Assembly (NCBI GenBank): GCA_963924565.1
Contig: OZ004615.1
Location: 17,856,001-17,920,000, forward strand
Origin: Ascidiella aspersa
Taxonomy: Eukaryota
Reading direction: 5' to 3'
DNA: 64,000 nucleotides
A program made the position numbers and the translations under genes. Numbering within the stretch: the first letter of the stretch is position 1; each line of letters begins with the position of its first letter. The notes under the pieces are model-generated. The model worked only from the letters and a program-made list of their open reading frames with translations, was not told the origin of the DNA and made no database searches. Shown one piece after another: positions 16,228-62,931 of the stretch.

Positions 16228-18000
16228 ATGACAGGACAAGATAAAGACGAGAAGAACACGTGGAAGTATCAATTGTCGGGATGCTTCCGTAACAAAACCT
16301 TATGCATAAAAGCGTTTCTGCTCCCATGTGTATTGGCAGGTAAATAGACGAATGAAAAAATTTGTTAAAAATCACCTTAGATAGTTTGTAGCGTGTTAGA
16401 GCCAACACGCGGTTCGCGGGCCGCATGCGGTCATGTCCAGTTTTATGCGGCTCTTTCGTTCGTTCTGTGTTTGAAATTTATGAGGATGTACAATGTAGGC
16501 TACAGTTCCGACTTCGTTTGCTTAAGTTATTGATTATATTCGGTTCAAACTTATATTGCATGTTATTATATAAAATCAAGTCAATAAATTACAGAAACTT
16601 CGACAGCGTGATGGATTTTTTTTAAGAAGTACTTAAACACCAATGATTCTATTGAATATATTATGTAATACGCAATAGTGTCAGTATGCAGCATTTTACA
16701 ATAATATAACGGAGCAAGAAATGTATGTGTACGCATGGCGGATCTACGGTGCACAATGTCTCTTCGCGAAAACAGTTTTTGCCTATTTTACTACTTGAAT
16801 ATAAACAAACCTCATTTTGCACTTCCATATTGCCGTGGTACCCATTTTTTCTAAATAGAACATTTTGCAAATATAACCCAGCTAAAGCAAATAAGTGTTT
16901 TTTGCGGGCATAGTGGAGTTGTCATTATAATAGGCCCTACTCAATGAAAAATCAGAGATTTTTAATTCCTTGTTCGGATTTGCCCCTTGAATGTACAACA
17001 ATAACTAAAACTAACGTGTGTTGTTTAGGGCAAACTGCTGAAGACACCAACCAGGGTTTCTTCGAGGAATGTTGTTTGGCCGCGCTTTGCTACCCTTGCG
17101 GCTCTTACTGCATGGCGATGACCAGACAGGCAACTAGAACTGAGAAAGGAGTTGAAGTAAACTATTGTTTTTTCCGAGAAAAAAATTAATGTATTCGAAG
17201 GTTAACACAGGGAAAACTTTTGATTCGATCCGATGGATGCTTTACTGTAACAATCCGAATTTGCTTCATTACTTCGGTAAAAATTGAATGAAAAACTTTT
17301 CCAGCTATTGTTTTTTTTAACAAAATATTCCTGGGACGAATACAGAAAAAGCCTTTTTATTATTTATGCTCAAATTAAGACCTATCTTGGATTTGTAAGA
17401 AAACAAATTATTTTTTTTTAACTTTTGTCATCACTATATCCATACGAAATTTATCAAACTTTCTTAGACAAATTCGTGTAAAATGAATTTAAAATTCACA
17501 TAAGCTACAAGCATTTTTCTATTTTCTACCTTCAGGGCACGTTCGCAGATGATTGTCTTGCATCGTTGTGCTGTCCTTGCTGCACTCTTGTACAAATTAG
17601 AATGGTGAGAAATAAATTTATCAGAAGTAGTAGGCTAATATTGAAAGCCAACTTGTGTAACCGATGTCAAGCCACGTTATTTTAACACTATACAAAATAA
17701 ATTTCAGTGTGACTACAAAAATACAGTTATTTTGAATTATTAGCACTAACCACTAACAAATAATAATAATTAAACACCATTGTCAGGTAACGAGGTACTG
17801 CGTAAAATCTGAACTTAACAAAAAAGTTTACAAACACCCAATAATAGCAGTCGGTTGAAGAACGTTTTTTATTTATACATTATATTAAAAGGTACCGTAG
17901 GCTTATTTATAGTTTTACCAAGATGTCATTGCATTCCGGTAATTTTGTTTGTGAATTGCAGGAACTCGAGCACAAAGAACAACGTATTGAGCGAAGTTAA
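16228..18000 (+). CDS. PLAC8: PLAC8-family Cys-rich protein, paralog B, copy 1 (115 aa)
   Basis: Exons 16228-16339, 17029-17156, 17536-17604, 17962-18000, GT..AG, phases 1/0/0; exons 2 and 3 have the same lengths as in paralog A (128 and 69 nt). Protein: MTGQDKDEKNTWKYQLSGCFRNKTLCIKAFLLPCVLAGQTAEDTNQGFFEECCLAALCYPCGSYCMAMTRQATRTEKGVEGTFADDCLASLCCPCCTLVQIRMELEHKEQRIERS*. Family-level symbol. Confidence 0.9.
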
Positions 18001-19610
18001 AGGCCGGGAAAAAATAAGTTCGAAGATGAACTGGTTCTAACATCGTTTTATCCTACTTTGTGGACAAAATAGCACAAATTTATTTATTTTCTGTATCTTA
18101 TTTGACAGATAAATGTGAAGTTTTCCTGCTTTATAGATTAATTTTTATTTGTTTCTTTACCTTCGTCGGGCTGGTTAGTTTTTTCGTGCTGAAACCTTGC
18201 ATGCTATTGTGCTGAAATCTTTCTCATTTTTTCTCTTGTATTTAAGTGCGAAATGCAATGTCGTGTGCACTCTAAATGTTTGTTTTTATGATGATCAGGT
18301 ACGACCAATGGTAAAGGTATATAGGAAAGGTGTGACAGTATAGGCAAGCTTTTGTATATTCTGGACGATATCCAGAGCTATATATAAATCTTTGGAGATT
18401 TGTTTTAGAACCTTTACAAAAAAGTACGTTGATTAACATTGTTTGAACAAGAAGTGACGCTAGTTTACTCAGTAAACAAAATCTTGATATTTATCACCTT
18501 AGCAACTACACTATTTTTGGATGTTTGTTTTTGGCCCAATTATTTTATGTTTGCTGGAAGTTTGGAACGTACCCGGAATAGAAAAATCTGTTTTCCAAAC
18601 ACTTTGGACAAACGACTTGGGATGAAATAAAAGGAATTTTATTTTAGTTTTTATGAAATTGGGTGATTTATTTCAGTTTGTGCACGTAAAAATAATATCT
18701 TACTATTTCGTGTTTTTGTTAAGTTTTAGTCGAGTTATTGCTCATAATCGGATAAGTTTGCCTATTTTAATAGTTTAAAGTTTTATTTTGACGTCAATGA
18801 ACTTGCTCCAATTATGACTACTTATTACTTATTAAATAAAACTTGACTTGAACTTAAGTTATTATACACAGGACTTGACTTAGACGTTATTTCACAAATG
18901 ACTTGGGACTTTAGTCACTTTAAATTGACTTACTTATGACACTGATTACGGTACTATAAACTTAACTTTAAAAGAAAGTTGCCATTAAAATCACTCCAGT
19001 TCGTTTAGTCTTGTACTGCGAATTAGGTAGCGAAATTTTGTTGCTAAAAGTAGTGCTTTGCTTGAAATCCGGGTAACCCACTTTCTTGCAAAACGACATT
19101 AGATTGCAAATTGCTGGCGGTAATAGAACATTGCTATTAATAAAATGTTATTTGGAAAGGTTTTGCTGCTTCAAACGTCTGGGTCTCATTTCGACGCTAG
19201 GCAGATGCATGGCAACAATGAGCTTATTGGAATTTGCCTCAAAGAAAGGTCTTCATTTGCTTAGTTATTAACATTTGTGCACCGTGGATGGATGTGTGTG
19301 CCTTTTAGACAAGAATCCACAATTGCAAGCAACTATCGTTTTTTTTTGCAAACCATCTTCGTTCATGCACCACATTGTAAACCTATAGCGGTAAACTTGC
19401 GACACTAAAAGCAACACAACTTATAGTCTTCTAAGATGAGCGTTCGTAAGTAAAGCCAAATAAAAAAATAAAAATGCTTGGTACAATCGGCAACCATGGC
19501 ACCGAATAAATTCTCTATTAATGGAAACATGTTGCTACACACTTGTATCGATTAGTAATTTCGAAACAAAAACGTTCTTCACTACAGCTGCTAAACAAAA
19601 TGCCCTGTAT

Positions 19611-20223
19611 CAGGGATGGCGAACCTTTTCATCGCGCGGGTTACAAACACGACCTTAATCCTTACAAAATGCTCAAGTGGGTCATGTATTTAGTTATTTG
19701 CTTATTTTATGCGAAACTTTGATGTTGCGTCGTTTCAAGTGTTATCGTCTCGGTTGGTAACCAAGGTTTTCATACGATTTCCAAATTCGGATTCTCACAG
19801 ATATTGAAACCTAAATAGTTAACAAATGCAACAGCAATTTTTATGGGCTTACAGGAATTCAGTTGAAAGCTTTTCAGCATGGTTCATCCAGGATTTTCAG
19901 ATTTTTTTAGTCTGCGAACTCTTACTTTCCAGTTTCTCTTTAAGCTTAAAGGATCGCCACGTTTTACAGCGATAAACAAAATGCGTTTAGTGTCTGCTTT
20001 TTGCACGCATTTGTTGAAAAGCAGTTAACGTACCGTACACCTACTTTTTTTGCACGACCCACAGATGGGCAACCCCGATTTAAACAGTAAGGCTACATAG
20101 CGAAAAACTTATTTTTAAATTTATCATTTCCTGAAAATGATTGATAACTTGTCTGTATTTCTACAGGAACAAGTGGGTCCTTAAAAATCTGTGGTGGGTC
20201 ACAAAAGTGGTTCGCCATCTCTG
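19611..20223. mobile_element. hAT-type MITE, 613 bp (U1)
   Basis: TIRs CAGGGATGGCGAACC / GGTTCGCCATCTCTG; 8-bp TSD CCCTGTAT/CCCTATAT. Empty site in U2 (~30849-30856). Confidence 0.85.
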
Positions 20224-21338
20224 CCCTATATCGAAGAAAATACTCAAGACTGCCACAAGCGACAACTTTTCAGGACACCGGATCTTCTAATAGCAAGAAT
20301 AACAAGTATATAATATTAATAACAGCAAAGGCAATAAATTTTCGAAATATGCAAGCAAGTGCTGTAACTGTACACAAAGTAACGCAACAAACCAAAGCTC
20401 CCGAGAAAGCGAATAAATACAAAAAATGCGACTTAGAAGCGCTCAAAAAGGGCATTTGGGGCTCGTTGCCCGATAGCACCAATACTTGAATGATATTGCA
20501 CGTGTTGCATATCGTCGCGTTACGAAACGCTGTTTAAAGGATATTTCGTGTCTGTAAATAAACAGCACTTGGGGTTAATTTGGGTTGCGCGCTTCCTTTA
20601 GACAAAACACGCAACGCATTTGCAACTGGCGGCAAATCTAAACAATCGTTTGCCACTGAATTCAGTTCCTTAGTAAAAAAGCACCTATACTTTACATGAG
20701 CGTTTGGGTTTGCGACAGTATGGTTTCGTTTTAGTCGAGGGTTAGTCATTTGACTAAGTTTGTAATATTGAACAGTGAGGTGCTTTCATAGATGTACAAC
20801 AATCATTCATATAGCATGCGTAAAGAAAATGTCCAAGCCACGAGCCAATCTAAAAACTATAGGCTCCTGTAGCATATTTATTAAAAGCGATTCTTTTGCC
20901 TTTTTGCTAGGCTTTTTCTTAGTTGGAGGAGTCGTTTAACTTTACTTTATTTTAAACGACTAAAAAAGGTTGTCGGTGAAATATTTCCATCATTTAACTG
21001 TTGATACCCAAGCAAAGTCTTAGGAATTATTCTAATACAAATAGTTAATTCGCATATTATGATTAAATAAAATCTACTTTTAAATTGCAGTAAACCAGTA
21101 ACCACAGGGGCAAATCGTCGCAACTCGCAAGACATATATAACTCGAATTAAATTATGTATAGCGCCTGATCACACGTCTCTGGTATAAACCCTTAGTTGT
21201 CGCATGCCCAAACAAGTGCCTGGTTTAGGCGACCGCATACCACCCGGCAAAATGCTTTACGAAAAATAAACCGTCACTGGGCGGCGTTGGATCTTTCATA
21301 GCTCCGAAATTCGAAGAAAAAAAAACTTGACGCGGCGC

Positions 21339-24337
21339 TCAGATGGCTGTATACCTTCCCATGTACTTCAAGCAGAAGCCCTGTGGCCTGTCGTGCCCAC
21401 TTAAATAGTTTGGTTTCTGCATTTGTTCCAGCAGGCTCATAATCTGGCTGGCGGTCTGTTGCGCTTCGGGGACTTCCTCGCCCGCGTCGAGGCGCGTAGT
21501 TTTGCCCGGGTGGGGCTCGGTGGTGGTTGAGCGCTCGTGGGGACTTTTCCCGGACAGGGGGGCGTTGTCGGGGAGGATGTCGGGCCGTGACACGATACGC
21601 TGTTTGACGTCATCGTCTTCGCTCATGTCTGGCCATTCGGAAGGCGAGGTTTCCGCGGATTCTGCGCGGAAAATGGCGGGTGAAGTTTTGCGTTGCTTTG
21701 ATGAGTTAAAGCAGGGGTTGGCAACCTTTTTGGTCCTGCGGACCGGTTTGAAACTAAAAATTTTCCGCGGGCCGGCTTTAAAAACAACAAATGTTCAATA
21801 AAGGTAACTTATTGCATCTTTTTTTTAATAAACTAATTAAAATGCATGTGCTTGTTTCTAAAACTTTCTTGCCTGAACTTCAAATAATAAATCATTTTGC
21901 AATGCATCTCATATGGCCACAGCACACTTGTTTGTTTTGAACCTCACCAGTGCTTAATAATAATTAAGACTTTTTAGCATACCAATCAACCGTGGAGTAT
22001 GTTTAAACGAAAGTTACGGTGTTTTGAATAGAAAACTACATTTAATTGTTGTTTGCCTTATTTTTAAGTTTCTTGGCATATTGAGTTCAGTTTGGGTTTA
22101 AATAAAATTTTAAATCTGGCAACCCTGCTACGGACCGGTGACGAACTCCTCGCGGACCGGCGGTTGCCGACCACTGAGTTAAAGGATGGCGATAATATTG
22201 GGTCGTATGCGATACCCGACTAGTATTTATGTATGTTCGATAACAAGGTGGTAACTGTATCGATTCGATGCCATGTTGTGCATTTAAGTCATGACTTGCG
22301 ACCCAATGCGTGTACAAACAAATAGTAAAAGCATATTTATAATAAAACTTTTAGAACTTATTGTTGTTCGAAGCGGGTAGGATTCTGTTGTGGAAACACG
22401 TATTAAGTTTTGATTATTTTGTTAGCAGTAATGAAGTTATTTCGATCAGAAGGCCGAATGTTTGGCTCATGATGATATCGCGTATAAGTGTGTTGCACAT
22501 ATTGGAGACATTAGACCTGATAATTCATAATTCGACTTGTGTAGGTTGATAAATTGATACCGATCTGATGTTAGAAATTACGGTTAGAAAAAAAAACAAC
22601 AATATATTTTATACCTTGAAGTGATATGCTGTCGCTGATGAAGTTCGCTCCGGATTGCTTCTGTGGCGTCGAGGATAAATGCTGTTCAGCCTCGCTTTGC
22701 CTTCTTCTCTCTTTCGCGTTGACGAGAGTGCGCACGAGCGTTTGGAGTTTTTCAAGTTTTTGCTGCAAACAAAAAATAAAAGTAGATTAATTAATAAAAC
22801 GTTAAACAACAAAACAACGGTTGCTAACCATTTAAAATTGACACCCTCTTTAAAAACGTAGAGTTGTTAGCGTAAAGCGCCAAAAAGTTTATATTTACAC
22901 AGTAAATGCTGTAAAAACTCGTTATGCGGGACATGGTCTGCTATTTCGATCCAGGACTGGCCCCTGTCCACTGACCTATTTAATAAACCATTTGACTTCA
23001 AAACAGTTCTGTTATCAACTAAACTTGACTTGTGAACTTACACGAGATTTATTGAAAGATTGGAATACAACCCAAACTGTTTTATGTTGCAATAATTCAG
23101 TTTAATAAGATGAAGCCAAACAAACCCGTATGGTGCATACGGTTCGGCTTTTGTTGGATTAAAACGAAATTGAATAGAAGGATTTTTTTGACAGATTTAA
23201 ATCGTTCCTGTGCGACCCACTTGTTTACCCTTCGCGAACCATGTTTAGGCACCACTGTTTTAGGGGAACACTCGTTAAAACCTTCCAGCATTTAATGCGT
23301 AATTTATTTTGCGGTCGCACTAACAGCGGGAACACAAAAAAAGGCCTACAAGGCAGCAATATCTAAGCAGATTAATCTACAATATTAAAGCATTACGACG
23401 ACAAAACCATCTACAATACCGTAGCATTACGAGAAATTGGGTTAGGGTTAAAACTATACATGACCCACCTGCATAACTTCTCGTTCTTGAGCGATGGACG
23501 AAACGTACTCGTCCTTCTCGTGATGACGCTGCTTGAGCAGCTGACGTTGGTTGTGGTAGAGTGTGATTTACTCGCCTGACGGTTGAAAGAAACGAAACAT
23601 TAAACACTTACCACACCATAGATAATGTGCCCTAAAACCGAGAAATCTACTGGTAAAAACACCACGCGCTATTCTGGGTACAATCCCAGTTATATGGACA
23701 AGTTGTGGACATCATTGTATGTGGAATGCCGTACATTTATTCAATTCAGCGATATAAACTTGTTTTATATTTGAGTACCGTGAGAGGAAATTATTAAGAT
23801 GGGTAATCTTAAATCAGTAAGTGTAAAAGTGTTTAAACTGTATACAAGTTATTTGAAACGTTCAGTATTAAAGCATATAATAAGTTTTTTAGAGCACTCG
23901 TACAGCCCACATTGTGTGTGGCTCGCGAACAATACGCACATAACGTTGTATCCCCGGATGCTGACAATCTTGGGACCATCAAGCACTTTATCAAGCGCCT
24001 ATCGTACATGTCGAGTTTCACAGTTTTGTAATGAATCAACGATTCGAATTCTTTTGTGGCCTGCAAAAAGCCGACAAACGTCGCTTTCCTAACGTAAATT
24101 TATTTATATCACACCGACAACGATTCTTCAGGTTCACTCTCCAATCAAACACGCAAGTTGAAAACGTTGGCCATTTCGATCCATGTTGTTGTAGTTGATT
24201 TTTTGCCAGTTTTAAACGCTAGCCGTTATCTTACCGATGGTGTCGCACTCGTTTTGCAGCAGCAAATTGATGTGTTCGAGCTCCTCCACTTTGCTCAGGG
24301 CGTCCACCGTCTCCGTCATTACTTTGGTAAAGCGATC
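21339..24337 (-). pseudogene. GOLGA2: GOLGA2/GM130 3' fragment, unit 1 (disrupted)
   Basis: Minus-strand exons 24337-24235 (DRFTKVMTETVDALSKVEELEHINLLLQNECDTIG), 23575-23469 (E*ITLYHNQRQLLKQRHHEKDEYVSSIAQEREVMQ, TAA at 23570-23568), 22762-22615 (QKLEKLQTLVRTLV...) and 21661-21339 (...TASQIMSLLEQMQKP...GFCLKYMGRYTAI*). These match the GM130 C-terminal motifs I recall (VEELEH..QLSGETDTIGEYIALYQ.QR..LK.RH.EKEEYI, KL.ELQ.LV..LV, TAQQIMQLL). The preceding exon is replaced. Confidence 0.85.
21712..22176. mobile_element. hAT MITE family alpha, 465 bp, in the last GOLGA2 intron (U1)
   Basis: TSD AGTTAAAG (21704-21711, 22177-22184). TIRs CAGGGGTTGGCAACC / GGTTGCCGACCACTG. Confidence 0.88.
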
Positions 24338-24769
24338 CTAGAGCAAAACCAAAAAAAAAATTCATAAACTGACAGGTTTTGTCTATTCTACGGGAAGATT
24401 TGGGATTCATTGAATGAATGCCAGTGACCAAAAATACTTAAGAGTGTGGTGATACTTGGATAGCTTAGTGCCTTTTTATTAACTCAAACACGTCAAATGC
24501 ACGAAGCACGAATTAGAACGCCAAAACTTGCAATTGTCACCCGGCGATATTTCACGCAATAACATTACGATGAAGACTATAGACAAATTAGATACTCCGA
24601 CTGAAGTACCAATTTCTTAGGCACTGTTAAAGTTTTGTCACTGCAAAGAATTGAACAGCAACTAAAAGAGTACCAGTCAATGCTGAATTCTGTATCAGCT
24701 CTACCACGTTAGTAAATATTAAAATAAATCTCTTACCTTCTGCTTGGAGCAAAATTTTAATTGTAATCA

Positions 24770-24949
24770 AACGGACGTTACAAGGTTTGCCACATATATA
24801 TTTCAAATAATTGAGAAGATATTCACATAAAATTTATATATTTTCAAAGACCTAAATCGAACGGACGTTACAGCAATTACCACATATATATTTGAAATGA
24901 TTTCAAAGCTATTCATATAAAATTTATTGGTTTTCAAAGATCTAAATTT
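24770..24949. repeat. Two diverged 90-bp tandem units within the segment replacing a GOLGA2 exon (also in U3, ~46940-47119)
   Basis: AACGGACGTTACA...CACATATATATTT...TTTTCAAAGA.CTAAAT at 24770 and 24860. Confidence 0.7.
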
Positions 24950-26769
24950 GGAGGCACCTGATGGTAAAATAATCAAAAATAGTGGTTTGGTCTGTTGCGT
25001 AAATATTAAAATTGTAGTTATTTTGGGTTAAGTAATACTAAAAGGCTTACATAATCCATATAAGCGTGGTCCAACTATGTTTAGTAGGGCGGGTCGCGAA
25101 AAAACTTTTTTTTCAAATCCACCTGCCTCATATGGATTTTGATAGATAGACAACTAAAACCGTTGTATACAAAGTTTAAGCTCATTTGAACATGTATTGG
25201 TGTGAGGAAATCGAGTTGAATTTTTGCCGAAAATCGCAAAATCGGGTAAAAATGCGAAAATTTAGGTTATGTTTAATCCATATTTTTTAAGTGAAATTCA
25301 TTTGCTATGACCTTATTCTTGTTTTTTAGACAGTTATGGAATAACTGAAGCAAGGTAGATCTGCAGAGATTACATTTTAATATTTATTTGCAGTAGTATT
25401 AAAAGTTGAATTTTTGCAGAAAATCGCAAAATTTATAAAATGGCAAAATTTTGGATTGCCTGCAATCTGTAGTTTTCAAATCAAACATGACTTCAAATCA
25501 ATGTACGATTTACTCAATTGTCTGACCCCGTTCTTGCGAAACACTGTCCCAAAGCGAAACAAGTAAGTCTGTGACAGTTTTGGAAATTACCGATTTATTC
25601 TTGGAAACATACTTTACGGGAAAACATTCCAAGGCGAATAAACGAGGTTTATTTAGTTTACAAGCTAGTTCTCGCTATGTCGTACGTGACCCAGCCAACG
25701 TAAGCGCGAAGTAACTTGAAGGCAATTTTCCATGGCCTTTTCGAAATGCCACAGGTTTTCTTTTTTGTTTGTTAGTCGTTTTCATCCCCCTGGTTAACAT
25801 TAGCACAAGGCCAGTTTACATCGGCGCTTTGAACGAAACTAAATATATCCATTGGCTTTTCCGGTTCTTTAAAACTTTCCGACGACATTTTCCGAGTGTC
25901 AATTAAAATTCACCGTTACTTTGTTGAAAAATCTTTACGGAGTTTTCCTTTGTGATTATTTACCTGAAACTTTGTTTTGCTTTTTTACAACCCACACAGA
26001 TCGCTTACTGCGCCTTTTGTTTTGCCTTGCGTCCTTACAACAGTAATATCTATTTTGAAATTCGTTTCGACACAATGTAAATAGAGCAGCTGGAAACCAC
26101 ACTGCAATTTCTAACTCTCGAATGTGGTGGCGTCTGTGGTATTTGGCTATAGAACACAATCTTATCGATGTCGCCACACGAAGAATCAACATTACGTGAA
26201 TAGGGCTTTTAAATTTTTTTCTCGATTTCGGTCAAAGCTTGAAAGAAAAATACCGTCGAATGTGTGTAAATTTGTAGGTATATATATACGAGACTCTATT
26301 GAATTTCGTGACGAGACAGCACGTGAAATACACGGCGGGCCTGTCATGGATGTAGGTTGATCGGCAAAACGCATAGCAGTCAGTGGCGGACATTAGGTGT
26401 AACTGTTGGACTATAGGTGCAATCGACAGTCATTATTGTTGACAATTACAACTACAGCCACTTGTTAAGTCCCTGTAACTTCGGCTCCGACAGATTTGGA
26501 ATTCATAGCGAATACAATTGGCCTAAATGACTATTTTAAGATTTCTGTGTGACACAATAGTAGCAGCTTTTAAAAGCTATAGATTAGCAAAACGTCGTCA
26601 TAAAACAGGTAACCGCGTTACTGAGGTTTAGGTTTTTAATCTGATCTAAACAATATTTCTTCTGAGTTTTAGTCAGCCTAAGCGTATTTGAAATTAAGTG
26701 TAACGATGGGAAATACTCACCGAATCTGTCGATCAATGATGCAAGCAAGGCAGGCCAGAAAAACAACTA

Positions 26770-26825
26770 GCCCGCAGTGAGGTTCGAACCCACGACCTCC
26801 GGTCATAACGGGACCGTTGCTCTAG
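26770..26825 (-). pseudogene. tRNA-like fragment (3' half; tRNA pseudogene or tRNA-derived SINE head)
   Basis: Minus strand reads ...CCGGAGGTCGTGGGTTCGAACCTCACTGCGGGC, with a B-box GGTTCGAACC and a T-arm. No intact 5' acceptor stem or D-arm. Also in U3-U5 (~38238, ~48956, ~60510); deleted in U1. Confidence 0.55.
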
Positions 26826-27439
26826 AAGAGAAAGTGGGCTACAGGCAGAGAGAGGAGCGAGTCGAGAAACAACCATACGCCAACACTTGCTACCTTCTGT
26901 CAGTACAAGCAACGACATATTGAAGGGAATCAACAGTACCGTATGATTCTATAAAAGACATACACATGTGGGTTTAATAACAACTGTGATCTAGCCCCTC
27001 GGAAGCTGTTTTTGACCAACGATACGAAAGCCATAATCGTTGGTCAAAAAGCAGCTTTTTCCGAGGGGCTAGATGACAGTTGTTATTAAGTGACTTCCCT
27101 TCAAGTGAGCGACTTCCCTTCATTTATCAAAATAACATTACTTAATTATAACCAGAAGAACTCAAAGCGGAGACCCTGAACACCAAACTTCGTTCACTTA
27201 ATCCAGCACTTGACTGAACTAAAACAATATATGGCTGCTTATTGTAAATCGACAAAATTCGTTTTCGGTTGGTTTTACAATTCGTTAAATGTCTCAGATA
27301 TTTCTTATTTTGTGAATAATAAAACTGAGATTCTGTAAGGCCTAATAGTACTACTACGAGACCCAAACAAACTGACGTAAACTCAACGTATGACCACAAT
27401 TTTTTTGTTTTAGTTTCACCACTATAGTTATTGGCGATA

Positions 27440-48600: not shown

Positions 48601-49640
48601 GCAATCAACAGTCATTATCGTTGACAATTAATTACAACTACAGCCACTTGTTAAGTCCCTGTAACATCGGCTCCGACAGATTTGGAATTCATAGCTAATA
48701 TAATTGGCCCAAATGACTATTTTAAGATTTCTGTGTGATACAATAGTAGCAGCTTTCAAAAGCTATAGATTAGCAAAACGTCGTCATAAAACAGGTAACC
48801 GCGTTACTGAGATTTAGGTTTTTAATCTGATCTAAACAATATTTCTTCTGAGTTTTAGTCAGCCTAAGCGTATTTGAAATTAAGTGTAACAATGGGAAAT
48901 ACTCACCGAATCTGTCGATCAATGATGCAAGCAAGGCAGGCCAGAAAAACAACCAGCCCGCAGTGAGGTTCGAGCCCACGACCTCCGGTCATACAGGACC
49001 TTTGGTCATACCGGGCCGTTGCTCTAGAAAAGAGTGAGCTATACACCGGCATAGAGAGGAGCGAGTCGAGAAACAACCATACGCTAATACCTGCTGCATT
49101 CTGTTAGTACAAGCAACTTCATATTGAAGGGAATCAACAGTATCGTATCATTCAATAAAAGACACACACATGTGGGTTTAATAACAACTGTGATATAGCC
49201 CCTCAGAAGCTGTTTTTTGACCAACGATACGGAAGCCATAATCGTTTGTCAAAAAGCAGCTTACGAAGGGCTAGATCACAGTTGTTATTAAACACATATG
49301 TGTGAGTGTCTTAATTCCCTTCATTTATCAAGATAGCATTACTTAATTATAACCAGAAGAACTCAAAACGGAGACCCTGAACACAAAACTTCGTTCACTT
49401 AATCCAGCACTTGACTGAACTAAAACAATATATGGCTGCTTATTGTCAATCGACAAAATTCGTTTTCGGTTGGTTTTACAATTCGTTAAATGTCTCAGAT
49501 ATTTCTTATTTTGTGTATAATAAAACTAAGATTCTGTTAGGCCTAATAGTACTACTACGAGACCCAAACAAACTGACGCAAACTTAGCGTATGACCACAA
49601 TTTTTTTGTTTTAGTTTCACCATTATAGTTATTGGCGATA

Positions 49641-51398: not shown

Positions 51399-52513
51399 AG
51401 GCCGGGAAAAATGAGTTCGAAGATGATCTGGTTTTAAGATCGTTTTACCCTACTTTGTAGAAATGCCACGAATTTATTTATTTTCTGTAGCCTCTTTAAC
51501 AGACAAGTGTGAAGTTTTCTTGTTTTATAGATTAATTTTTATTTGTTTCTTTACCTTCGCCGAGCTGGTTAGTTTTTTTTTCGTGCTGAAACCTTGCATG
51601 CTATTGTGCTGAAATCTTTCCCATTTTTTCTCTTGTATTTAAGTGCGAAATGCAATGTCGTGTGCACTCTAAATGTTTGTTTTTATGATGATCAGGTACG
51701 ACCAATGGTAAAGGTATATAGGAAAGGTGTGACAGTATAGGCAAGCTTTCCTATATTCTGGACGTTATCCAGAGCTATATATAAATCTTTGGAGATTTGT
51801 TTCAGAACCTTTACAAAGAAGTACGTTGATTAACATTGTTTGAACAAGAGGTGACGCTAGTTTGGTCAGTAAACAAAATTAAATAAAACTCAACTTGAAC
51901 TTTAGTTATTTTACGTAGGATTAGGTGTTATTCCGCGAAATTTTGTTGCTAAAAGTAGTGCTTGGCTTGGAATCCGGGTAGCCCACTTTCTTGCAAAACA
52001 ACAATAGATTGCAAATTGCTGGCGGTAATAGAACATTGCTATTAATAAAATGTTATTTGGAAAGGTTTTGCTGCTTCAAACGTCTGGGTCTCATTTCGAC
52101 GGTAGGCAGATGAATGGCAACATTGACCTTTTGGAATTTGCCTCAAAGAAAGGTCTTCATTTGCTTAGTTATTAACATTTGTGCACCGTGGATGGATGTG
52201 TGTGCCTTTTAGAAAAGAATCCACAATTGCAAGCAACTATCGTTTTTTTTTGTAAACCATCTTCGTTCATGCACCACATTGTAAACCTATAGCGGTAAAC
52301 TTGCGACACTAAAAGCTAAAAGCAACACAACTTATAGTCTTCTAAGATGAGCGTTCGTAAGTAAAGGCAAATAAAAATGCTTGGTACAATCGGCAACCAT
52401 GGCACCGAATAAATTCTCTATTAATGGAAACATGTTGCTACACACTTGTATCGATTAGTTATTTCGAAACAAAAACGTTCTTCACTACAGCTGCTAAACA
52501 AAATGCCCTGTAT

Positions 52514-53126
52514 CAGGGATGGCGAACCTTTTCATCGCGCGGGTTACAAACACGATCTTAATCCTTACAAAATGCTCAAGTGGGTCATGTATTTAGTTAT
52601 TTGCTAATTTTATGCGAAACTTTGATGTTGCGTCGGTTCAAGTGTTATCGTCTCGGTTGGCAACCAAGGTTTTCATACGATTTCCAAATTCGGATTTTCA
52701 CAGATATTGAAACCAAAATAGTTAACAAATGCTACAGCAATTTTTATGGGATTACAGGAATTCAGTAGAAAGCTTTTCAGCATGGTTTATCCAGGATTTT
52801 CAGATTTTTTTAGTCTGCGAGCTCTTACTTTCCAGTTTCCCTTTAAGCTTAAAGGATCGCCACGTTTTACAGCGATAAACAAAATGCGTTTAGTGTCTGC
52901 TTTTTGCACGCATTTGTTGAAAAGCAGTTAACGTACCGTACACCTACTTTCTTTGCACGACCCACAGATGGGCAACCACGATTTAAATAGTAAGGCTACA
53001 TAGCGAAAAACTTATTTTTAAATTTATCATTTCCTGAAAATGATTGATAACTTGTTTGTATTTCTACAGGAACAAGTGGGTCCTTAAAAATCTGTGGTGT
53101 GTCACAAAAGTGGTTCGCCATCTCTG
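52514..53126. mobile_element. hAT-type MITE (U4 copy of 19611-20223)
   Basis: Same TIRs and TSD. Confidence 0.85.
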
Positions 53127-54603
53127 CCCTATATCGAAGAAAATACTCAAGACTGCCACAAGCGACAACTTTTCAGGACACCGGATCTTCTAATAGCAAG
53201 AATAACAAGTATATAATATTAATAACAGCAAAGGCAATAAATTTTCGAAATATGCAAGCAAGTGCTGTAACTGTACACAAAGTAACGCAACAAACCAAAG
53301 CTCCCGAGAAAGCGAATAAATACAAAAAAAAATGCGACTTAGAAGCGCTCAAAAAGGGCATTTGGGGCTCGTTGCCCGATAGCACCAATACTTGATATTG
53401 CACGTGTTGCATATCGTCGCGTTACAAAACGCAGTGTAAAGGATATTTCGTGTCTTCGTAAATAAACAGCACTTTGGGTTAATTTTGTGTTGCGCGCTTC
53501 CTATAGACAAAACACGCAACGCATTTGCAACTGGCGGTAAACAATCGTTTGCCACTGAATTTAGTTCCTTAGTAAAACAGCACCTATACTTTACATGAGC
53601 GTTTGGGTTTGCGACAGCATGGTTTCGTTTTAGTCGAGGGTTAGTCATTTGACTAGGTTTGTAATATTGAACAGTGAGGTGTTTCCATAGATGTACAATC
53701 ACTCATATAGCATGCGTAAAGAAAATGTCCAAGCCACGAGCCAATCTAAAAACTATAGGCTCCTGTAGCATATTTATTAAAAGCGATTCTTTTGCCTTTT
53801 TGCTAGGCTTTTTGTACTTAGTTGGAGGACTCGTTAGCTTTACTTTATTTTAAACGACTAAAAAAGATTGTCGGTGAAATATTTCCATCATTTAACTGTT
53901 GATAACCAAGCAAAGTCTTAGGAATTATTCTAATACAAATCGTTAAATTCGCATATTATGATTGAGTAAACTCTACTTTTAAATTGCAGTAAACCAGTAA
54001 CCACAAGGGCAAATCGTCGCAACCCGCAAGACATATATAACTCGAATTGAATTATGTATAGCGCCTGATCACACGTCTCTGGTATAAACCCTTAGTTGTC
54101 GCATGCCCAAACAAGTGCCTGATTTAGGCGACCGCATACAAAATGCTTTACGAAAAATAAACCGTCACTGGGCGGCGTTGGATCTTTCATAGCTCCGAAA
54201 TTCGAAGGAAAAAAAAACTTGACGCGGCGCTCAGATGGCTGTATACCTTCCCATGTACTTCAAGCAGAAGCCCTGTGGCCTGTCGTGCCCACTTAAATAG
54301 TTTGGTTTCTGCATTTGTTCCAGCAGGCTCATAATCTGGCTGGCGGTCTGTTGCGCTTCGGGGACTTCCTCGCCCGCGTCGAGGCGCGTAGTTTTGCCCG
54401 GGTGGGGCTCGGTGGTGGTTGAGCGCTCGTGGGGACTTTTCCCGGACAGGGGGGCGTTGTCGGGGAGGATGTCGGGCCGTGACGCGATACGCTGTTTGAC
54501 GTCATCGTCTTCGCTCATGTCTGGCCATTCGGAAGGCGAGGTTTCCGCGGATTCTGCGCGGAAAATGGCGGGTGAAGTTTTGCGTTGCTTTGATGAGTTA
54601 AAG

Positions 54604-55068
54604 CAGGGGTCGGCAATCTTTTTGGTCCTGCGGACCGGTTTGAAACTAAAAATTTTCCGCGGGCCGGCTTTAAAAACAACAAATGTTCAGTAAAGGTAAC
54701 TTATTGCATCTTTTTTTTAATAAACTAATTAAAATGCATGTGCTTGTTTCTAAAACTTTCTTGCCTGAACGTCAAATAATAAATCATTTTGCAATGCATC
54801 TCATATGGCCACAGCACACTCGTTTGTTTTGAACCTCACCAGTGCTTAATACTAATTAAGACTTTTTATCATACCAATCAACCGTGGAGTATGTTTAAAC
54901 GAAAGTTACTGTGTTTTGAATAGAAAACTACATTTAATTGTTGTTTGCCTTATTTTTAAGTTTCTTGGCATATTGCGTTCAGTTTGGGTTTAAATAAAAT
55001 TTTAAATCTGGCAACCCTGCTACGGACCGGTGACGAACTCCTCGCGGACCGGCGGTTGCCGACCACTG
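54604..55068. mobile_element. hAT MITE family alpha, 465 bp (U4)
   Basis: TSD AGTTAAAG on both sides; TIRs as in U1/U2. Confidence 0.88.
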
Positions 55069-56240
55069 AGTTAAAGGATGGCGATAATATTGGGTCGTAT
55101 GCGATACCCGACTAGTATCTATGTATGTTCGATAACAAGGTGGTAACTGTATCGATTCGATGCCATGTTGTGCATTTAAGTCATGACTTGCGACCCAATG
55201 CGTGTACAAACAAATAGTAAAAGCACATTTATAATAAAACTTTTAGAACTTATTGTTGTTCGAAGCGGGTAGGATTCTGTTGTGGAAACACGTATTAAGT
55301 TTTGATTATTTTGTTAGCAGTAATGAAGTTATTTCGATCAGAAGGCCGAATGTTTGGCTCATGATGATATCGCGTACAAGTGTGTTGCACATATTGGAGA
55401 CATTAGACCTGATAATTCATAATTCGACTTGTGTAGGTTGACAAATTGATACCGATCTGAAGTTAGAAATTACGGTTAGAAAAAAACAACAATATATTTT
55501 ATACCTTGAAGTGATATGCTGTCGCTGATGAAGTTCGCTCCGGATTGCTTCTGTGGCGTCGAGGATAAATGCTGTTCAGCCTCGCTTTGCCTTCTTCTCT
55601 CTTTCGCGTTGACGAGAGTGCGCACGAGCGTTTGAAGTTTTTCAAGTTTTTGCTGCAAACAAAAAATAAAAGTAGATTAATTAATAAAACGTTAAACAAC
55701 AAAACAACGGTTGCTAACCATTTAAAATTGACACCCTCTTTAAAAACGTAGAGTTGTTAGCGTAAAGCGCCAAAAAGTTTATATTTACACAGTAAATGCT
55801 GTAAAAACTAGTTATGCGGGACATGGTCTGCTATTTCGATCCAGGAAACCATTTGACTTCAAAACAGTTCTGTTATCAACTAAACTTGACTTGTGAACTT
55901 CTACGAGATTTATTGAAAGACTTGAATACCGCCCAAACTGTTTTATGTTGCAATAATTCAGTTTAATAAGATGAAGCCAAACAAACCCGTATGGTGCATA
56001 CGGTTCGGCTTTTGTTGGATTAAAACGAAATTGAATAGAAGGATTTTTTTGACAGATTTAAATCGTTCCTGTGCGACCCACTTGTTTACCCTTCGCGAAC
56101 CATGTTTAGGCACCACTGTTTTAGGGAACACTCGATGAAACCTTCCAGCATTTCATGCGTAATTTATTTTGCGGTCGTACTAACAGCGGGAACACAAAAT
56201 AAGACCTACAAGGCAGCAATATCTTAAGCAGATTAATCTA

Positions 56241-56905
56241 CAATACCATAGCATTACGACAACAAAACCATCGACAATACCATAGCATTACGACAACAAA
56301 ACCATCTGCAATACCATAGCATTCCGACGACAAAACCATATGCAATACCATAGCATTCCGACGACAAAACCATCGACAATACCATAGCATTACGACGACA
56401 AAACCATCTGCAATACCATAGCATTACGACGACAAAACCATCGACAATACCATAGCATTCCGACGACAAAACCATCTGCAATACCATAGCATTACGACGA
56501 CAAAACCATCTGCAATACCATAGCATTACGACGACAAAACCATCGACAATACCATAGCATTCCGACGACAAAACCATATGCAATACCATGGCATTACGAC
56601 GACAAAACCATCTGCAATACCATAGCATTACGACGACAAAACCATCGACAATACCATAGCATTCCGACGACAAAACCATCTGCAATACCATAGCATTACG
56701 ACGACAAAACCATCTGCAATACCATAGCATTACGACGACAAAACCATCGACAATACCATAGCATTCCGACGACAAAACCATATGCAATACCATGGCATTA
56801 CGACGACAAAACCATCTGCAATACCATGGCATTACGACGACAAAACCATCTGCAATACCATAGCATTACGACGACAAAACCATCTGCGATACAATAGCAT
56901 TACGA
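56241..56905. repeat. 34-bp minisatellite, ~19.6 copies (U4)
   Basis: Same length and variant order as the U2 array. Confidence 0.95.
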
Positions 56906-59900
56906 GAAATTGGGTTAGGGTTAAAACTATACATGACCCACCTGCATAACTTCTCGTTCTTGAGCGATGAACGAAACGTACTCGTCCTTCTCGTGATGAC
57001 GCTGCTTGAGCAGCTGACGTTGGTTGTGGTAAAATGTGATGTACTCGCCTGACGGTTGAAAGAAACGAAACATTAAACACTTACCACACCATAGATAATG
57101 TGTCCTAAAACCAAGAAATCTACTGGAAAATCTACTGGTAAAAACATCACGCGCTATTCTGGGTACAATCCCAGTTATATGGACAAGTTGTGGACATCAT
57201 TGTATGTGAAATGCCGTACATTTATTCAATTCAGCGATATAAACTTGTTTTATATTTGAGTACCTTGAGAGGAAATTATTGAGATGGGTAATCTTAAATT
57301 AGTAAGTGTAAAAGTGTTTAAACTGTATGCAATTTATTTGAAACGTTCAGTATTAAGGCATATAATAAGTTTTTTAGAGCACTCGTACAGCCCACATTGA
57401 GTGTGGCCCGCGAACAATACGCACATAACGTTGTATCCCCGGATGCTGACAATCTTGGGACCATCAAGCACTTTATCAAGCGCCTATCGTACATGTCGAG
57501 TTTCACAGTTTTGTATTGAATCAACGATTCGAATTCTTTTGTGGGCTGCAAAAAGCCGACAAAAGTCGCTTTCCTAACGTAAATTTATTTATATCACACC
57601 GACAACGATTCTGTAAGTTCACTCTCCAATCAAACACGCAAGTTAAAAACGTTGCCCATTTCGATCCATGTTGTTGTAGTTGAATTTTTGCCAGTTTTAA
57701 ACGCTAGCCGTTATCTTACCGATGGTGTCGCACTCGTTTTGCAGCTGCAAATTGATGTGTTCGAGCTCCTCCACTTTGCTTAGGGCGTCCACCTTCTCCG
57801 TCATTACTTTAGTAAAGCGATCCTAGAGCAAAAGCAAAAAATTTTCATAAACTGACAGGTTTTGTCTATTCTATGAGAAGATTTGGGATTCATTGAATGA
57901 ATGCCAGTGACCAAAAATACTTAAAGTGTGGTGATACTTGGACAGCTTAGTGCCTTTTTATTAATTCAAACACGTCAAATGCACGAAGCACGAATTAGAA
58001 CGCAAAAACTTGCAATTGTCACCCGGCGATATTTCACGCAATAACATTACGATGAAGGCTATAGACAAATTAGATTCGACTGAAGTACCAATTTCTTAGG
58101 CGCTGTTAAAGTTTTGTCACTGCAAAGAATTGAACAGCAACTAAAAGAGTACCAGTCAATGCTGAATTCTGTATCAGCTCTACCACGTTAGTAAATATTA
58201 AAATAAATCTCAACAGTATAAACGCAATGGCCAACAAAATAGCAAAAAGTTAAAAATAATTGTTTTACTACAGCGATTTCTAGACACTTAAATTAAGCTG
58301 CTCATAAAATAAATTTAAAAAGATTTTCGAAAATCATAGTTTTTCTTCAATCAAATCAAATCAAAGCCATTTAAATATTTGAAGACTTAGTGAAACCTTA
58401 CGTTACAATAATTAGCAACTCGAAGAGCTATTGGAGTATATTTGCTAACTGGCTGAATCAAATATCTCGAGAAAAACCCACCTGAAGCAAGGACATGTTC
58501 TTGACCAACGACTCGTGTTCTTCCATTGACACTTCCAGGTCCGGCGAAGGCCGGCTCTCGTTGTTTGCGGATTCCTGCAATGCGGAGGACCTCTCCAGCT
58601 CTGTCTTCTGCTGTTCCAACCTCCGGACGAAGATCGACTTTTCCTCCTGGAGGTCAGCGATCGAGCGGTTCAACTGAGACACCTGGTGGTAAAATAATCA
58701 AAAATAGTGGTTTGGTGTGTTGCGTAAACATTAAAATTGTAGCTATTTTGGGTTAAGTAATACTACAAGGCTTACATAATCCATATAATCGTGGTCCAAC
58801 TATGTTTAGTAGGGCGGGTCGCGAAAACACTTTTTTTTCAAATCCACCTGCCTCATATGGATTTTGATAGATAGACACCTAAAACCGTTGTATACGAAGT
58901 TTAAGCTCATTTGAACATGTATTGGTGTGAGGAAATCGAGATGAATTTTTGCCAAAAATCGCAAAATCGGGTAAAAATGCGAAAATTTAGGTTATGTTTA
59001 ATCCATATTTTTTACTTGAAATTCATTTGCTATGACCTTATTCTTGTTTTTTAGACAGTTATGGAATATTTGAAGCAAGGTAGATCTGCAGAGATTACAT
59101 TTTAATATTTATTTGCAGTAGTATTAAAAATTGGATTTTTGCAGAAAATCGCAAAATTTATAAAAAGGCAAAATTTTGGATTGCCTGCAAACTGTAGTTT
59201 TCAAATCAAACATGACTTTAAATTAATGTACGATTTACTCAATTGTCTGACCCCCTTCTTGCGAAACACTGTCCCAAAGTGAAACAAGTAAGTCTGTGAC
59301 AGTTTTGGAAATTACCGACTTATTCTTGGAAACATACTTTACGGGGAAACATAACAAGGCGAATAAACGAGGTTTATTTAGTTTACAAGCTAGTTCTCGC
59401 TATGTCGTACGTGACCCAGCCAACGTAAGCGCGAAGTAACTTGAAGGCAATTTTCCATGGCCTTTTCGAAATGCCACAGGTTCTTTTTTGTTTGTCGGTC
59501 GTTTTCATCCCCCTGGTTAACAACAGCACAAGGCCAGTTTATATCAGCGCTTTGAACGAAACTAAATATATCCATTGGTTTTTCGGATTCTTTAAAACTT
59601 TCCGACGACAATCCGAGTGTCAATCAAAACTCACCGTTGCTTTGTTGAAAAATCTTTACGGAGTTTTCCTTTGTGATTACCTGAAACTTTTTTGTTTGTT
59701 CGTAGCCCGCAGATCGCTTACTGCGCCTTTTGTTTTGCCTTGCGTCTCTACAACAGTAATATCTATTTTAAAATTGGTTTCGACACAATGTAAACAGAGC
59801 AGCTGGAAACCACCCTGCAATTTCTAACGCTCGAAGGTTGTGGCGTTTGTTGTATTTGGCTATAGAACCCAATCTTATCGATGTCGCCACACGAAGAATC

Positions 59901-61194
59901 AACATTACGTGAATAGGGCTTTTTTTTTAATTTTTCTCGATTTCAAGCTTCAAAGAAAAATACCGTCGAATGTATGTAAATTTGTAGGTATATATATATG
60001 GGAAATGTTTTTTAAAACGAGACTCTATTGAATTTCGTGACGAGACAGCACGTGAAATACACGTCGGGCCTGTCATGGATGTAGGTTAATCGGCAAAGCG
60101 CATAGCAGTCAGTGGCGGACATTAGGTGTAACTGTTGGAAGTTGGACTATAGGTGCAATCAACAGTCATTATCGTTGACAATTAATTACAACTACAGCCA
60201 CTTGTTAAGTCCCTTTAACATCGGCTCCGACAGATTTGGAATTCATAGCTAATATAATTGGCCCAAATGACTATTTTAAGATTTCTGTGTGATACAATAG
60301 TAGCAGCTTTCAAAAGCTATAGATTAGCAAAACGTCGTCATAAAACAGGTAACCGCGTTACTGAGATTTAGGTTTTTAATCTGATCTAAACAATATTTCT
60401 TCTGAGTTTTAGTCAGCCTAAGCGTATTTGAAATTAAGTGTAACAATGGGAAATACTCACCGAATCTGTCGATCAATGATGCAAGCAAGGCAGGCCAGAA
60501 AAACAAGCAGCCCGCAGTGAGGTTCGAGCCCACGACCTCCGGTCATACAGGACCTTTGGTCATACCGGGCCGTTGCTCTAGAAAAGAGTGAGTTATACAC
60601 CGGCATAGAGAGGAGCGAGTCGAGAAACAACCATACGCCAATACCTGCTGCATTCTGTTAGTACAAGCAACTTCATATTGAAGGGAATCAACAGTACCGT
60701 ATCATTCAATAAAAGGCACACACATGTGGGTTTAATAACAACTGTGATCTAGCCCCTCAGAAGCTGTTTTTTGACCAACGATACGGAAGCCATTATCGTT
60801 TGTCAAAAAGCAGCTTACGAAGGGCTAGATCACAGTTGTTATTAAACACATATGTGTGAGTGTCTTAATTCCCTTCATTTATCAAAATAGCATTACTTAA
60901 TTATAACCAGAAGAACTCAAAACGGAGACCCTGAATACAAAACTTCGTTCACTTAATCCAGCACTTGACTGAACTAAAACAATATAGGGCTGCTTATTGT
61001 CAATCGACAAAATTCGTTTTCGGTTGGTTTTACAATTCGTTAAATGTCTCAGATATTTCTTATTTTGTGTATAATAAAACTAAGATTCTGTTAGGCTTAA
61101 TAGTACTACTACGAGACCCAAACAAACTGACGCAAACTCAGCGTATGACCACAATTTTTTTGTTTTAGTTTCACCATTATAGTTATTGGCGATA

Positions 61195-62931
61195 ATGACA
61201 GGACAAGATAAAGACGAGAAGAACACGTGGAAATATCAATTGTCGGGATGCTTCCGTAACAAAACCCTCTGCATAAAAGCCTTTCTGCTCCCATGTGTAT
61301 TGGCAGGTGAATAGACGAATAAGAAAGTTTGTTAAAAGTCACCTTAAATAGTTTATAGCCCGCAGACCAGTAGAGCCAACACGCGGTTCGAGGGCCGCAT
61401 GCCGTCATGGTCCAGTTTTTTGCGGCTCTTTCGTTCGTTCTGTGTTTGAGATTTCTTAGGATGTACAATGTAGGCTACAGTTCCAACTTCTTTTGCTTAA
61501 GTTATTGATTATATTGTCGGTTCAAACTTATATTGTATGTTACTATATAAAATCAAGTCAATAAATTTTAGAAACTTCGACAGCGTGATGTTTTTTTTTA
61601 AGAAGTACTTAAACACCAATGATTCTATTGAATATATTATGTAATACGCAATAGTGTTAGTATGCAGCATCTACGGTGCATAATGTCTCTTCGCGAAAAC
61701 AGTTTTTGCCTATTTTACTACTTGAATATAAACAAACCTCATTTTGCACTTCCATATTGCCGTGGTACCCATTTTTTCTAAATAGAATATTTTTGCAAAT
61801 TTAACCCAGGTAAAGCAAATAAGTGTTTTTTGCGGGCATAGTGGAGTTGTCATTATAATAGGCCCTACTCAATGAAAAATCAGAGATTTTTAATTCCTTG
61901 TAAGGATTTGCCCCTTGAATGTACAACAATAACTAAAACTAACGTGTGTTGTTTAGGGCAAACTGCTGAAGACACCAACCAGGGTTTCTTCGAGGAATGT
62001 TGTTTGGCCGCGCTTTGCTACCCTTGCGGCTCTTACTGCATGGCGATGACCAGACAGGCAACTAGAACTGAGAAAGGAATTGAAGTAAACTATTAATTTT
62101 TCCGAGAAAAAAAAATTAGTGTATTCGAAGGTTTTTAGTGTATACAGGGAAAACTTTTGATTCGATCCAAAGAATGTTTTACTGTAACAATCCGAATTTG
62201 CTTCACTACTTCGGTGAAAATTTAATGAATAACTTTTCCAGCTATTGTTTTCTTAACGAAATATTTATGGGGCAAATACTAAAAAAGCCTTTTTAATATT
62301 TATGCTCAAATTAAGACCTATCTTGGATTTGTAAGAAAAAAAAAATATTTTTTTTAACTTTTGTCATCACTATATCCATACGAAATTTATCAAACTTTCT
62401 TAGACAAATTCGTGTAAAATGAATTTAAAATTCACATAAGCTACAAGCATTTTTCTATTTTCTACCTTCAGGGCACGTTCGCAGATGATTGTCTTGCATC
62501 GTTGTGCTGTCCTTGCTGCACTCTTGTACAAATTAGAATGGTGAGAAATAAATGCATCAGAAGTAGTAATATTAAAAACCAACTTGTGTAACCGATGTCA
62601 AGCCACGTTATTTCAACACTATACAAAATAAATTTAAGTGTGACAACAAAAATACAGTTATTTTGAATTATTAGCACTAACCACTAATAAATAATAATAA
62701 TTAAACACCATTGTCAGGTAACGAGGTACTGCGTAAAATCTGAACTTAACCAAAAAGTTTACAAATACCCAATAATAGTAGTCGGTTGAAGAACTTTTTT
62801 TATTTATACATTATATTAAAAGTTACCGTAGGCTTATTTATAGATTTACCAAGATGTCATTGTAATCCATTAATTTTGTTTGTGAATTACAGGAACTCGA
62901 GCACAAAGAACAACGTATTGAGCGAAGTTAA
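61195..62931 (+). CDS. PLAC8: PLAC8-family paralog B, copy 5 (115 aa)
   Basis: Exons 61195-61306, 61957-62084, 62472-62540, 62893-62931. Intact. Confidence 0.9.

What the first reader, a model, noticed from the sequence alone, without database searches (positions are those of the whole stretch)
16228..62931. Payload versus hitchhiker: five PLAC8-B copies stay intact while the co-duplicated GM130 exons decay
Across the five 348-nt CDSs I see only AAG/AAA (Lys), TTA/CTC (Leu), GCG/GCC (Ala) and one conservative GTT/ATT (Val/Ile). All splice sites are kept, although the adjacent introns carry many substitutions and tens-of-bp deletions. In the same units the GOLGA2 exons show a nonsense codon, exon loss and several replacements (K>T, Q>L, T>P, S>F). 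This pattern is expected if PLAC8-B dosage is what selection maintains. The counts are small, so it is suggestive rather than proven.
Basis: partly seen in the sequence, partly recalled or inferred. Interest (0 to 1): 0.7.

Follow-up and report, generated by a model that had tools for sequence, protein, structure and literature searches.

The report
Sea-squirt PLAC8 tandem copy-number array
A sea squirt carries seven side-by-side copies of a small cysteine-rich PLAC8 gene, each dragging along the tail end of a neighbouring Golgi gene; the copies are intact, but that is likely inherited from the working ancestral versions rather than proof that extra copies are being kept by selection.

Summary
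The listed variants are real, but the contrast is weaker than described. The array has seven ~11-kb units, two beyond the window. Full GOLGA2 uses unit 7's exons; units 1-6 hold only its last five exons, orphans by construction. The stop, exon loss, K>T and Q>L come from one lineage (U1+U3); 4 of 6 orphan sets are open, with no frameshift or lost splice site. PLAC8-B passes the exon-versus-intron test (p=0.0001), but so do orphan exons b-d (p=0.008), so the test does not discriminate. Units 6-7 add N10K, A55V, C92S; the gene-versus-gene contrast falls from p=0.006 to 0.09, or 0.29 against conserved exons. Units are recombinant mosaics. One DNA run suggests about 2-3 copies per haploid set, not 7; one RNA run had next to no reads on PLAC8-B, without a positive control. 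Verdict: a probably polymorphic tandem array whose constraint is mostly inherited from functional alleles; dosage selection remains possible, unshown. The scan's earlier notes held nothing on this locus.

The parts
4255..9458 (+). PLAC8-A, single-copy paralogue outside the array (4 coding exons: 4255-4342, 4766-4893, 6674-6742, 9411-9458)
   Evidence: Pfam PLAC8 hit on exon 1; 46% identical to PLAC8-B
14602..14714 (+). TATA-like run (14602-14613) just outside the unit and the only strong donor site upstream of PLAC8-B (14706-14714) just inside: possible first exon cut by the breakpoint (inferred, untested)
   Evidence: no RNA reads to test it
14652..25503 (.). Unit 1 (leftmost, keeps the original upstream flank)
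16228..18000 (+). PLAC8-B copy 1 (exons 16228-16339, 17029-17156, 17536-17604, 17962-18000); Val79
   Evidence: Pfam PLAC8 on exons 1 and 3, E 0.018 and 0.0011, below cut-off as single exons
21339..24337 (-). Orphan GOLGA2 exons e, d, c, b of U1 (TAA in c; K>T, Q>L in b; exon a deleted)
25085..25503 (+). ~420-nt end of a dispersed hAT-like transposon forming the junction; same at all six junctions
25504..36956 (.). Unit 2
27440..29231 (+). PLAC8-B copy 2
31959..36410 (-). Orphan GOLGA2 exons e-a of U2, reading frame open (L>F in c)
33964..34633 (.). 34-nt minisatellite in the GOLGA2 c-d intron (19.7 copies; 6.7 in U3 at 45376; 19.7 in U4 at 56236; nearly absent in U1)
36957..47674 (.). Unit 3
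38923..40659 (+). PLAC8-B copy 3
43257..46507 (-). Orphan GOLGA2 exons e-b of U3 (TAA, T>P, K>T, Q>L; exon a deleted)
47675..59228 (.). Unit 4
49641..51398 (+). PLAC8-B copy 4
54231..58682 (-). Orphan GOLGA2 exons e-a of U4, frame open (L>F, S>F in c)
59229..64000 (.). Unit 5, part inside the window. Beyond the window's right end follow the rest of U5, units 6 and 7 (PLAC8-B copies 6 and 7 in L002 and L003) and the full-length GOLGA2 gene on the minus strand (L003-L005), whose last five exons are those of unit 7
61195..62931 (+). PLAC8-B copy 5

Best explanation
This is a seven-unit tandem array in which each unit holds the whole PLAC8-B coding region plus the last four or five GOLGA2 exons, and the PLAC8-B copies likely look constrained mainly because the units were likely built from divergent working alleles and multiplied recently, not because extra dosage is selected. 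Shown: one original joint links a GOLGA2 intron, through a transposon end, to a point 1.58 kb before the PLAC8-B start codon; all six junctions share it; only unit 7's GOLGA2 exons belong to the full gene; units are recombinant mosaics. Inferred: unequal crossing-over or conversion multiplied the unit and repeatedly copied sequence from functional alleles into both PLAC8-B and the orphan exons, so both carry an old low-dN signature; changes since then are few and look neutral in both genes. Inferred: copy number segregates in the population.
For: Orphan exons b-d also fall below their introns (10/358 vs 163/2602, p=0.008; N sites p=0.003) and are indel-free as improbably as PLAC8-B (window permutation P=0.004 for each, five units). 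Each orphan versus U7 in exons b-d: 0-4 N in 284 sites but 2-5 S in 73, introns 2.5-4.5%: most of their divergence accrued under constraint. PLAC8-B changes shared by several units are 0 N:6 S; changes private to one unit are 4 N:1 S, as neutrality predicts (Fisher p=0.015, post hoc). U6 vs U7: 3 N, 0 S, intron 13/1430. Among U3-U7 N sites are not significantly below introns (p=0.25). At the orphans' inactivation rate (2 events in 882 nt) a 348-nt gene stays intact with P=0.45. Mosaicism: 36% of distant vs 2% of close informative site pairs are incompatible. Unit-to-unit differences (1-8%) are of the size of allelic diversity in Ciona (piS 5.7%, piN/piS 0.046, PMC3509891 section 13; 1.5% and 0.11 in PMC3623758 passages). 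DNA run X11: mean depth 16.4 over 23 non-repeat bins against 6.3 expected or 7.7 in two flank bins, 2.1-2.6 copies per haploid set.
Against: In five copies PLAC8-B has fewer replacements than the GOLGA2 exons b-e (1/275 vs 17/534, one-sided p=0.006; 0.015 for six; 0.086 for 7 PLAC8-B vs 6 orphans), and pN/pS is 0.06-0.15 vs 0.34-0.46. The deep split U1 vs U3-U5 shows 1 N where ~14 are expected at intron rate; if that split arose after duplication, both lineages were functional paralogues. No PLAC8-B copy has a stop, frameshift, lost splice site or exon deletion. Allelic diversity of this species was not measured; the Ciona figures are from other species. All counts are small and the six shared synonymous changes sit in two blocks of exon 1.
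Confidence: 0.55

Rival explanations
1. Dosage selection: most copies are transcribed, extra PLAC8-B protein is favoured, and purifying selection keeps them intact while the GOLGA2 exons decay.
For: Significant N deficit in PLAC8-B (p=0.007 for five, 0.002 for seven copies); stronger than in orphan b-e for five or six copies (p=0.006, 0.015); repeated expansion to 7; poly(A) signals kept in all 7; the array also exists in a DNA run with at least three unit types.
Against: Orphans pass the same tests; private changes are 4 N:1 S; contrast not significant with all copies (p=0.086-0.29); next to no PLAC8-B reads (depth 0 on three exon bins, about 1 on the fourth, no spliced joint) in 1177 million RNA letters of the one run laid (tissue unknown, no positive control); the left breakpoint may cut off TATA box and start site from U2-U7 (untested).
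Confidence: 0.25
2. Two functional types are retained (U1-like with the old promoter, U3-U7-like behind the transposon end, as fixed heterozygosity or a new expression domain); further copies of the second type are neutral surplus.
For: Constraint is concentrated on the deep U1 vs U3-U5 split (1 N:4 S at ~5% intron divergence) and is not detectable within U3-U7; the junction puts an AT-rich transposon end with a TATA-like word upstream of U2-U7.
Against: The two types differ by one conservative residue; captured alleles give the same pattern; no expression data.
Confidence: 0.12
3. The GOLGA2 pieces are not passengers: U2, U4, U5, U6 make a short GM130 C-terminal protein or serve as alternative 3' ends of GOLGA2.
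For: Four of six orphan sets are open over five exons with all splice sites, no indel, pN/pS 0.37 over U1-U6 (p=0.008), an in-frame Met in exon a and poly(A) signals.
Against: No promoter identified; replacements hit residues invariant in two other ascidians; one lineage has a stop and an exon deletion; not tested by RNA.
Confidence: 0.04
4. The number seven is inflated by assembly (two haplotypes of a shorter array laid in a row).
For: An ~11-kb stretch recurs at 99.3% identity 22.3 kb apart; X11 depth implies fewer copies.
Against: The repeated stretches still differ (4/3702 and 24/4502 columns) and other units differ by 1-8%; no gap (N) in the region; X11 seems to show a different mix of unit types, so is probably another genotype.
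Confidence: 0.04

Closest known systems
PLAC8/cornifelin family (Pfam PF04749)
   Same: Small Cys-rich protein, 46% identical to PLAC8-A; exons 1 and 3 hit the profile; at least three paralogues in this cluster and more on C6 and C7. A cornifelin-like gene marks stigmata cells in Botrylloides (PMC12212465, one passage).
   Different: No report of an ascidian PLAC8 copy-number array turned up in my search listings; function of this paralogue untested.
Tandem gene amplification with passenger sequence (dosage CNVs; review PMC3857721, passages)
   Same: Head-to-tail units, one junction, expansion by unequal exchange, internal deletion in passenger DNA.
   Different: The dosage benefit, copy-number-linked expression and selection that define adaptive cases are not shown here.
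Allelic divergence preceding duplication (Proulx and Phillips 2006; seen only as a reference title, model recalled)
   Same: Units carry divergence that looks filtered by selection in both genes, as captured alleles would.
   Different: No evidence that the captured alleles differ in function.
Primate GOLGA6/GOLGA8 core duplicons (PMC6920530, passages)
   Same: GOLGA2-related sequence repeated, partly in tandem, in an unstable region.
   Different: There the copies are expressed genes spread along a chromosome; here they are 3' fragments without the gene's promoter in one local array, of independent origin.

Membership tests
PLAC8 family | Match to PF04749 at both ends of the domain with its cysteine motifs | tested here: met
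   Exon 1 to profile 1-25 (E 0.018), exon 3 to 79-97 (E 0.0011), each below the whole-protein cut-off as lone exons; spliced protein aligns over 95 residues to PLAC8-A (E 1e-28) and to intronless paralogues that pass the cut-off
GOLGA2/GM130 | GOLGA2L5 coiled coil plus GM130 C-terminal motif, orthology | tested here: met
   PF15070 hits; GM130_C E 0.008 on exon e, below cut-off (none in the genome-wide scan); Phallusia protein maps from residue 1 to 1035
Adaptive dosage amplification | Whole transcription unit, promoter included, inside each repeat | tested here: inconclusive
   CDS and poly(A) signals inside; breakpoint lies between a TATA-like run and the only strong upstream donor; start site unknown
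Adaptive dosage amplification | Several copies transcribed | tested here: inconclusive
   Depth 0 on three exon bins and about 1 on the fourth, no spliced joint, in one RNA run; no positive control
Adaptive dosage amplification | Purifying selection on extra copies after duplication | tested here: inconclusive
   Not detected within U3-U7 (p=0.25) or in private changes (4 N:1 S); overall deficit present but shared with orphans
Adaptive dosage amplification | Copy number tracks expression, fitness or environment | not testable with these tools
   One DNA and one RNA run from different samples only
hAT-type transposon end at the junction | Terminal inverted repeats and 8-bp target duplication | tested here: met
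   Inverted arms of 440-1000 nt in 5 of 5 paired loci; 8-bp duplication perfect in 1, one mismatch in 1, absent in 1, not scorable in 2 of 5; superfamily label is recalled
hAT-type transposon end at the junction | Autonomous partner with hAT transposase | not tested
   Only L012 was scanned for long frames and gave satellite-derived ones

The most novel reading that the evidence does not exclude
A cornifelin-like PLAC8 gene is under selection for dosage in an ascidian as a segregating multi-copy array, with a transposon end at the junction serving as new promoter for the added copies and the orphan GOLGA2 exons acting as a built-in neutral clock.
Probability: 0.2. Interest if true: 0.62.

Novelty: new member of a known kind. 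Interest (0 to 1): 0.3.

Why it matters
If dosage selection were shown, this would be a rare handle on what invertebrate PLAC8/cornifelin proteins do, with natural copy-number variants to compare. As it stands its value is mainly methodological: the orphan exons are an internal control showing that, in a highly polymorphic animal, low exon divergence and intact splice sites among tandem copies can arise without selection on the copies.

Tried and rejected
Exon-versus-intron test as proof of selection on copies: rejected, the orphan control passes it too. First intron counts were inflated by misaligned non-homologous inserts; columns in windows over 25% mismatch were dropped, not in the permutation or the site-pair count; indel counts are approximate. 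No RNA holder was listed by the index. The RNA lay covered PLAC8-B only, so there is no control gene and GOLGA2 orphan expression is untested. Protein search with PLAC8-B exon 2 found nothing (1 candidate, none scored), so no orthologue was available to gauge normal constraint on PLAC8-B. The CpG-rich block at 14450-14600 was considered as promoter evidence but it draws repeat reads. C92S was considered as loss of a family cysteine; paralogues carry F, W, C or G there, so it is not an invariant site. Allele shares were not used to count copies because only the best-supported 40 of 294 rows are shown. Earlier scan notes (7 listed) concern other loci. Supplements of the papers were not read. An earlier count said depth 0 on all four exon bins; the table shows about 1 on the exon-3 bin, and this report follows the table.
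Full report
Setting. The window is G000:C9:17856001-17920000. The best relatives of the GOLGA2 last exon are from Phallusia mammillata (57%) and Ciona savignyi (52%) (2 hits of 118 candidates), so the animal is most likely an ascidian. A DNA search with PLAC8-B exon 2 gives 7 of 7 candidates in one row. Counting window coordinates onward, the units start at 14652, 25504, 36957, 47675, 59229, 70390 and 81884 and homology ends at 93813; PLAC8-B copies 6 and 7 lie at 72353-74136 and 83851-85637 on that count. Two single-copy PLAC8 paralogues lie to the left (PLAC8-A at 4255-9458 and one in L009).

Observation. The four variable codons, the 348-nt length and the intact splice sites in five copies are exactly as reported. 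The GOLGA2 changes are there too. But the TAA, K>T, Q>L and the ~465-nt deletion of exon a are all shared by U1 and U3 with the same deletion ends: one damaged lineage. U2, U4, U5 and U6 have five open exons. No GOLGA2 exon present in any unit has an indel or a lost GT/AG. The two units beyond the window add N10K (U6), A55V and C92S (U7) and three synonymous changes shared by U6 and U7.

Anatomy. The Phallusia protein maps once over residues 1-702 at 95063-105713 (minus strand) and residues 742-1035 recur in the units. So unit 7 supplies the end of the working gene and units 1-6 hold orphans; their decay needs no explanation and says nothing about why the array exists. All six junctions have the same form: GOLGA2 intron, ~420 nt of a dispersed element (40 of 116 candidates scored, 36 matches outside the array), then position 14652. 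The element has long inverted arms and an 8-bp target duplication in 2 of 3 scorable loci, which I read as hAT-like (label recalled). Unit 7 lacks it at that site. The breakpoint falls about 40 nt after a TATA-like run and 57 nt before the only strong donor found in 13000-16200; if that is the first exon, U2-U7 lack the original start site. This is untested.

Tests. For five units, PLAC8-B CDS has 5/348 variable sites against 84/1352 in its introns (p=0.0001) and 1 N:4 S against 275:70 sites (p=0.007); for seven, 4 N:7 S (p=0.002). So there is a real purifying signature. The control is the orphans: exons b-d have 10/358 against 163/2602 (p=0.008), N sites at 0.34 of the intron rate (p=0.003), and random non-coding windows of the same sizes are gap-free in 0.4% of draws for either gene. 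Each orphan differs from U7 in b-d by 0-4 replacements in 284 sites but 2-5 synonymous changes in 73; exons neutral for their whole branch would show several times more replacements. Most divergence between units therefore accrued while these exons were under constraint, most simply as working alleles (inference). Ciona alleles differ this way (piS 5.7%, piN/piS 0.046, PMC3509891 abstract and section 13 read; 1.5% and 0.11, PMC3623758 passages); the value for this species was not measured.

Gene against gene. But 11 of the 17 sit in exon e, a weakly conserved region (54% to Phallusia, against 92-97% for exon c), as one haplotype block of largely conservative changes; against b-d p=0.068. With all seven PLAC8-B copies against six orphan sets p=0.086 (b-e) and 0.29 (b-d); N:S ratios never differ significantly (Fisher 0.09-1.0). 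Within U3-U7, which differ by about 1% in introns, PLAC8-B N sites vary at 0.46 of the intron rate (p=0.25). Shared PLAC8-B changes are 0 N:6 S and private ones 4 N:1 S (p=0.015, a post hoc split on two blocks). At the orphans' rate of inactivating events, 348 nt stays intact with P about 0.45.

History. Distances to U1 and U7 switch along the unit and 36% of distant but 2% of close informative pairs fail the four-gamete test. U3/U5 differ at 4 of 3702 columns in the PLAC8-B part and U2/U4 at 24 of 4502 in the GOLGA2 part, a recent two-unit-period duplication. Inferred: one duplication, then unequal exchange that both multiplied units and imported functional-allele sequence.

Reads. DNA run X11 (1936 million letters) gives mean depth 16.4 (s.e. 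0.9) over 23 non-repeat bins of the unit against 6.3 expected and 6.7 and 8.6 in two flank bins: 2.1-2.6 copies per haploid set, a lower bound because reads under 85% alike are dropped; about 4 is not excluded, 7 on both chromosomes (about 44 expected) does not fit. U2- and U4/U6-type length variants appear near 15410 beside reads without either, so that sample also has an array. RNA run X12 (1177 million letters, about 6% of the run, tissue unknown) has depth 0 on the bins of exons 1, 2 and 4 and about 1 on the bin holding exon 3 and the intron bin before it, with no spliced joint; there is no control gene in that lay, so this shows only low or absent expression in that sample.

Comparison and verdict. 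Both genes are ordinary members of known families. The structure is a tandem copy-number array with a truncated passenger gene, a known kind (PMC3857721 passages). It resembles primate GOLGA6/8 duplicons only in repeating GOLGA2-like sequence (PMC6920530 passages). Search listings for PLAC8 with ascidian (5 papers, 4 listed), PLAC8 with copy number and tandem (12 of 64 listed) and cornifelin with tunicate (10 of 2318 listed) showed no description of this array; one passage places a cornifelin-like transcript in Botrylloides stigmata cells. Dosage selection is not excluded (0.25), but the sequence pattern is what inherited constraint plus recent multiplication would give (0.55). Interest 0.3.

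Noticed in passing
window 25085-25503 and equivalent ends of U2-U6: The tandem junction is a transposon end with long inverted repeats, sitting in a GOLGA2 intron and absent from unit 7; it may have caused the duplication and may supply a promoter.
   Followed up: partly
window 14602-14714: Left breakpoint falls between a TATA-like run and a consensus donor: possible first exon cut by the duplication.
   Followed up: partly
window 33964-34633, 45376-45603, 56236-56905; L003 8480-9800: 34-nt minisatellite in a GOLGA2 intron varies from about 1 copy (U1) to about 40 (U7) between units.
   Followed up: no
window 16264-16314 (exon 1, codons 13-29): All seven synonymous PLAC8-B changes cluster in about 50 nt of exon 1; exons 2-4 have none in 236 nt.
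   Followed up: partly
L009 2992-3812: A third PLAC8 paralogue with a similar exon layout lies 6-7 kb left of the window.
   Followed up: partly
L023 (G000:C7:8325000-8334600); L019-L021 (C6): Another three-gene PLAC8 tandem on C7 and three PLAC8 genes on C6 whose domain is uninterrupted by introns (possible retrocopies).
   Followed up: no
window 15594-15901 and the extra 330 nt in U2-U7 (26485-26814): Very high-copy repeat (depth 1800-3400 in DNA run X11, also in RNA); the segment missing from U1 ends in what looks by eye like a tRNA-derived head.
   Followed up: no
window 30847-41730 vs 53125-64000: Two-unit-period recent duplication at 99.3% identity.
   Followed up: partly
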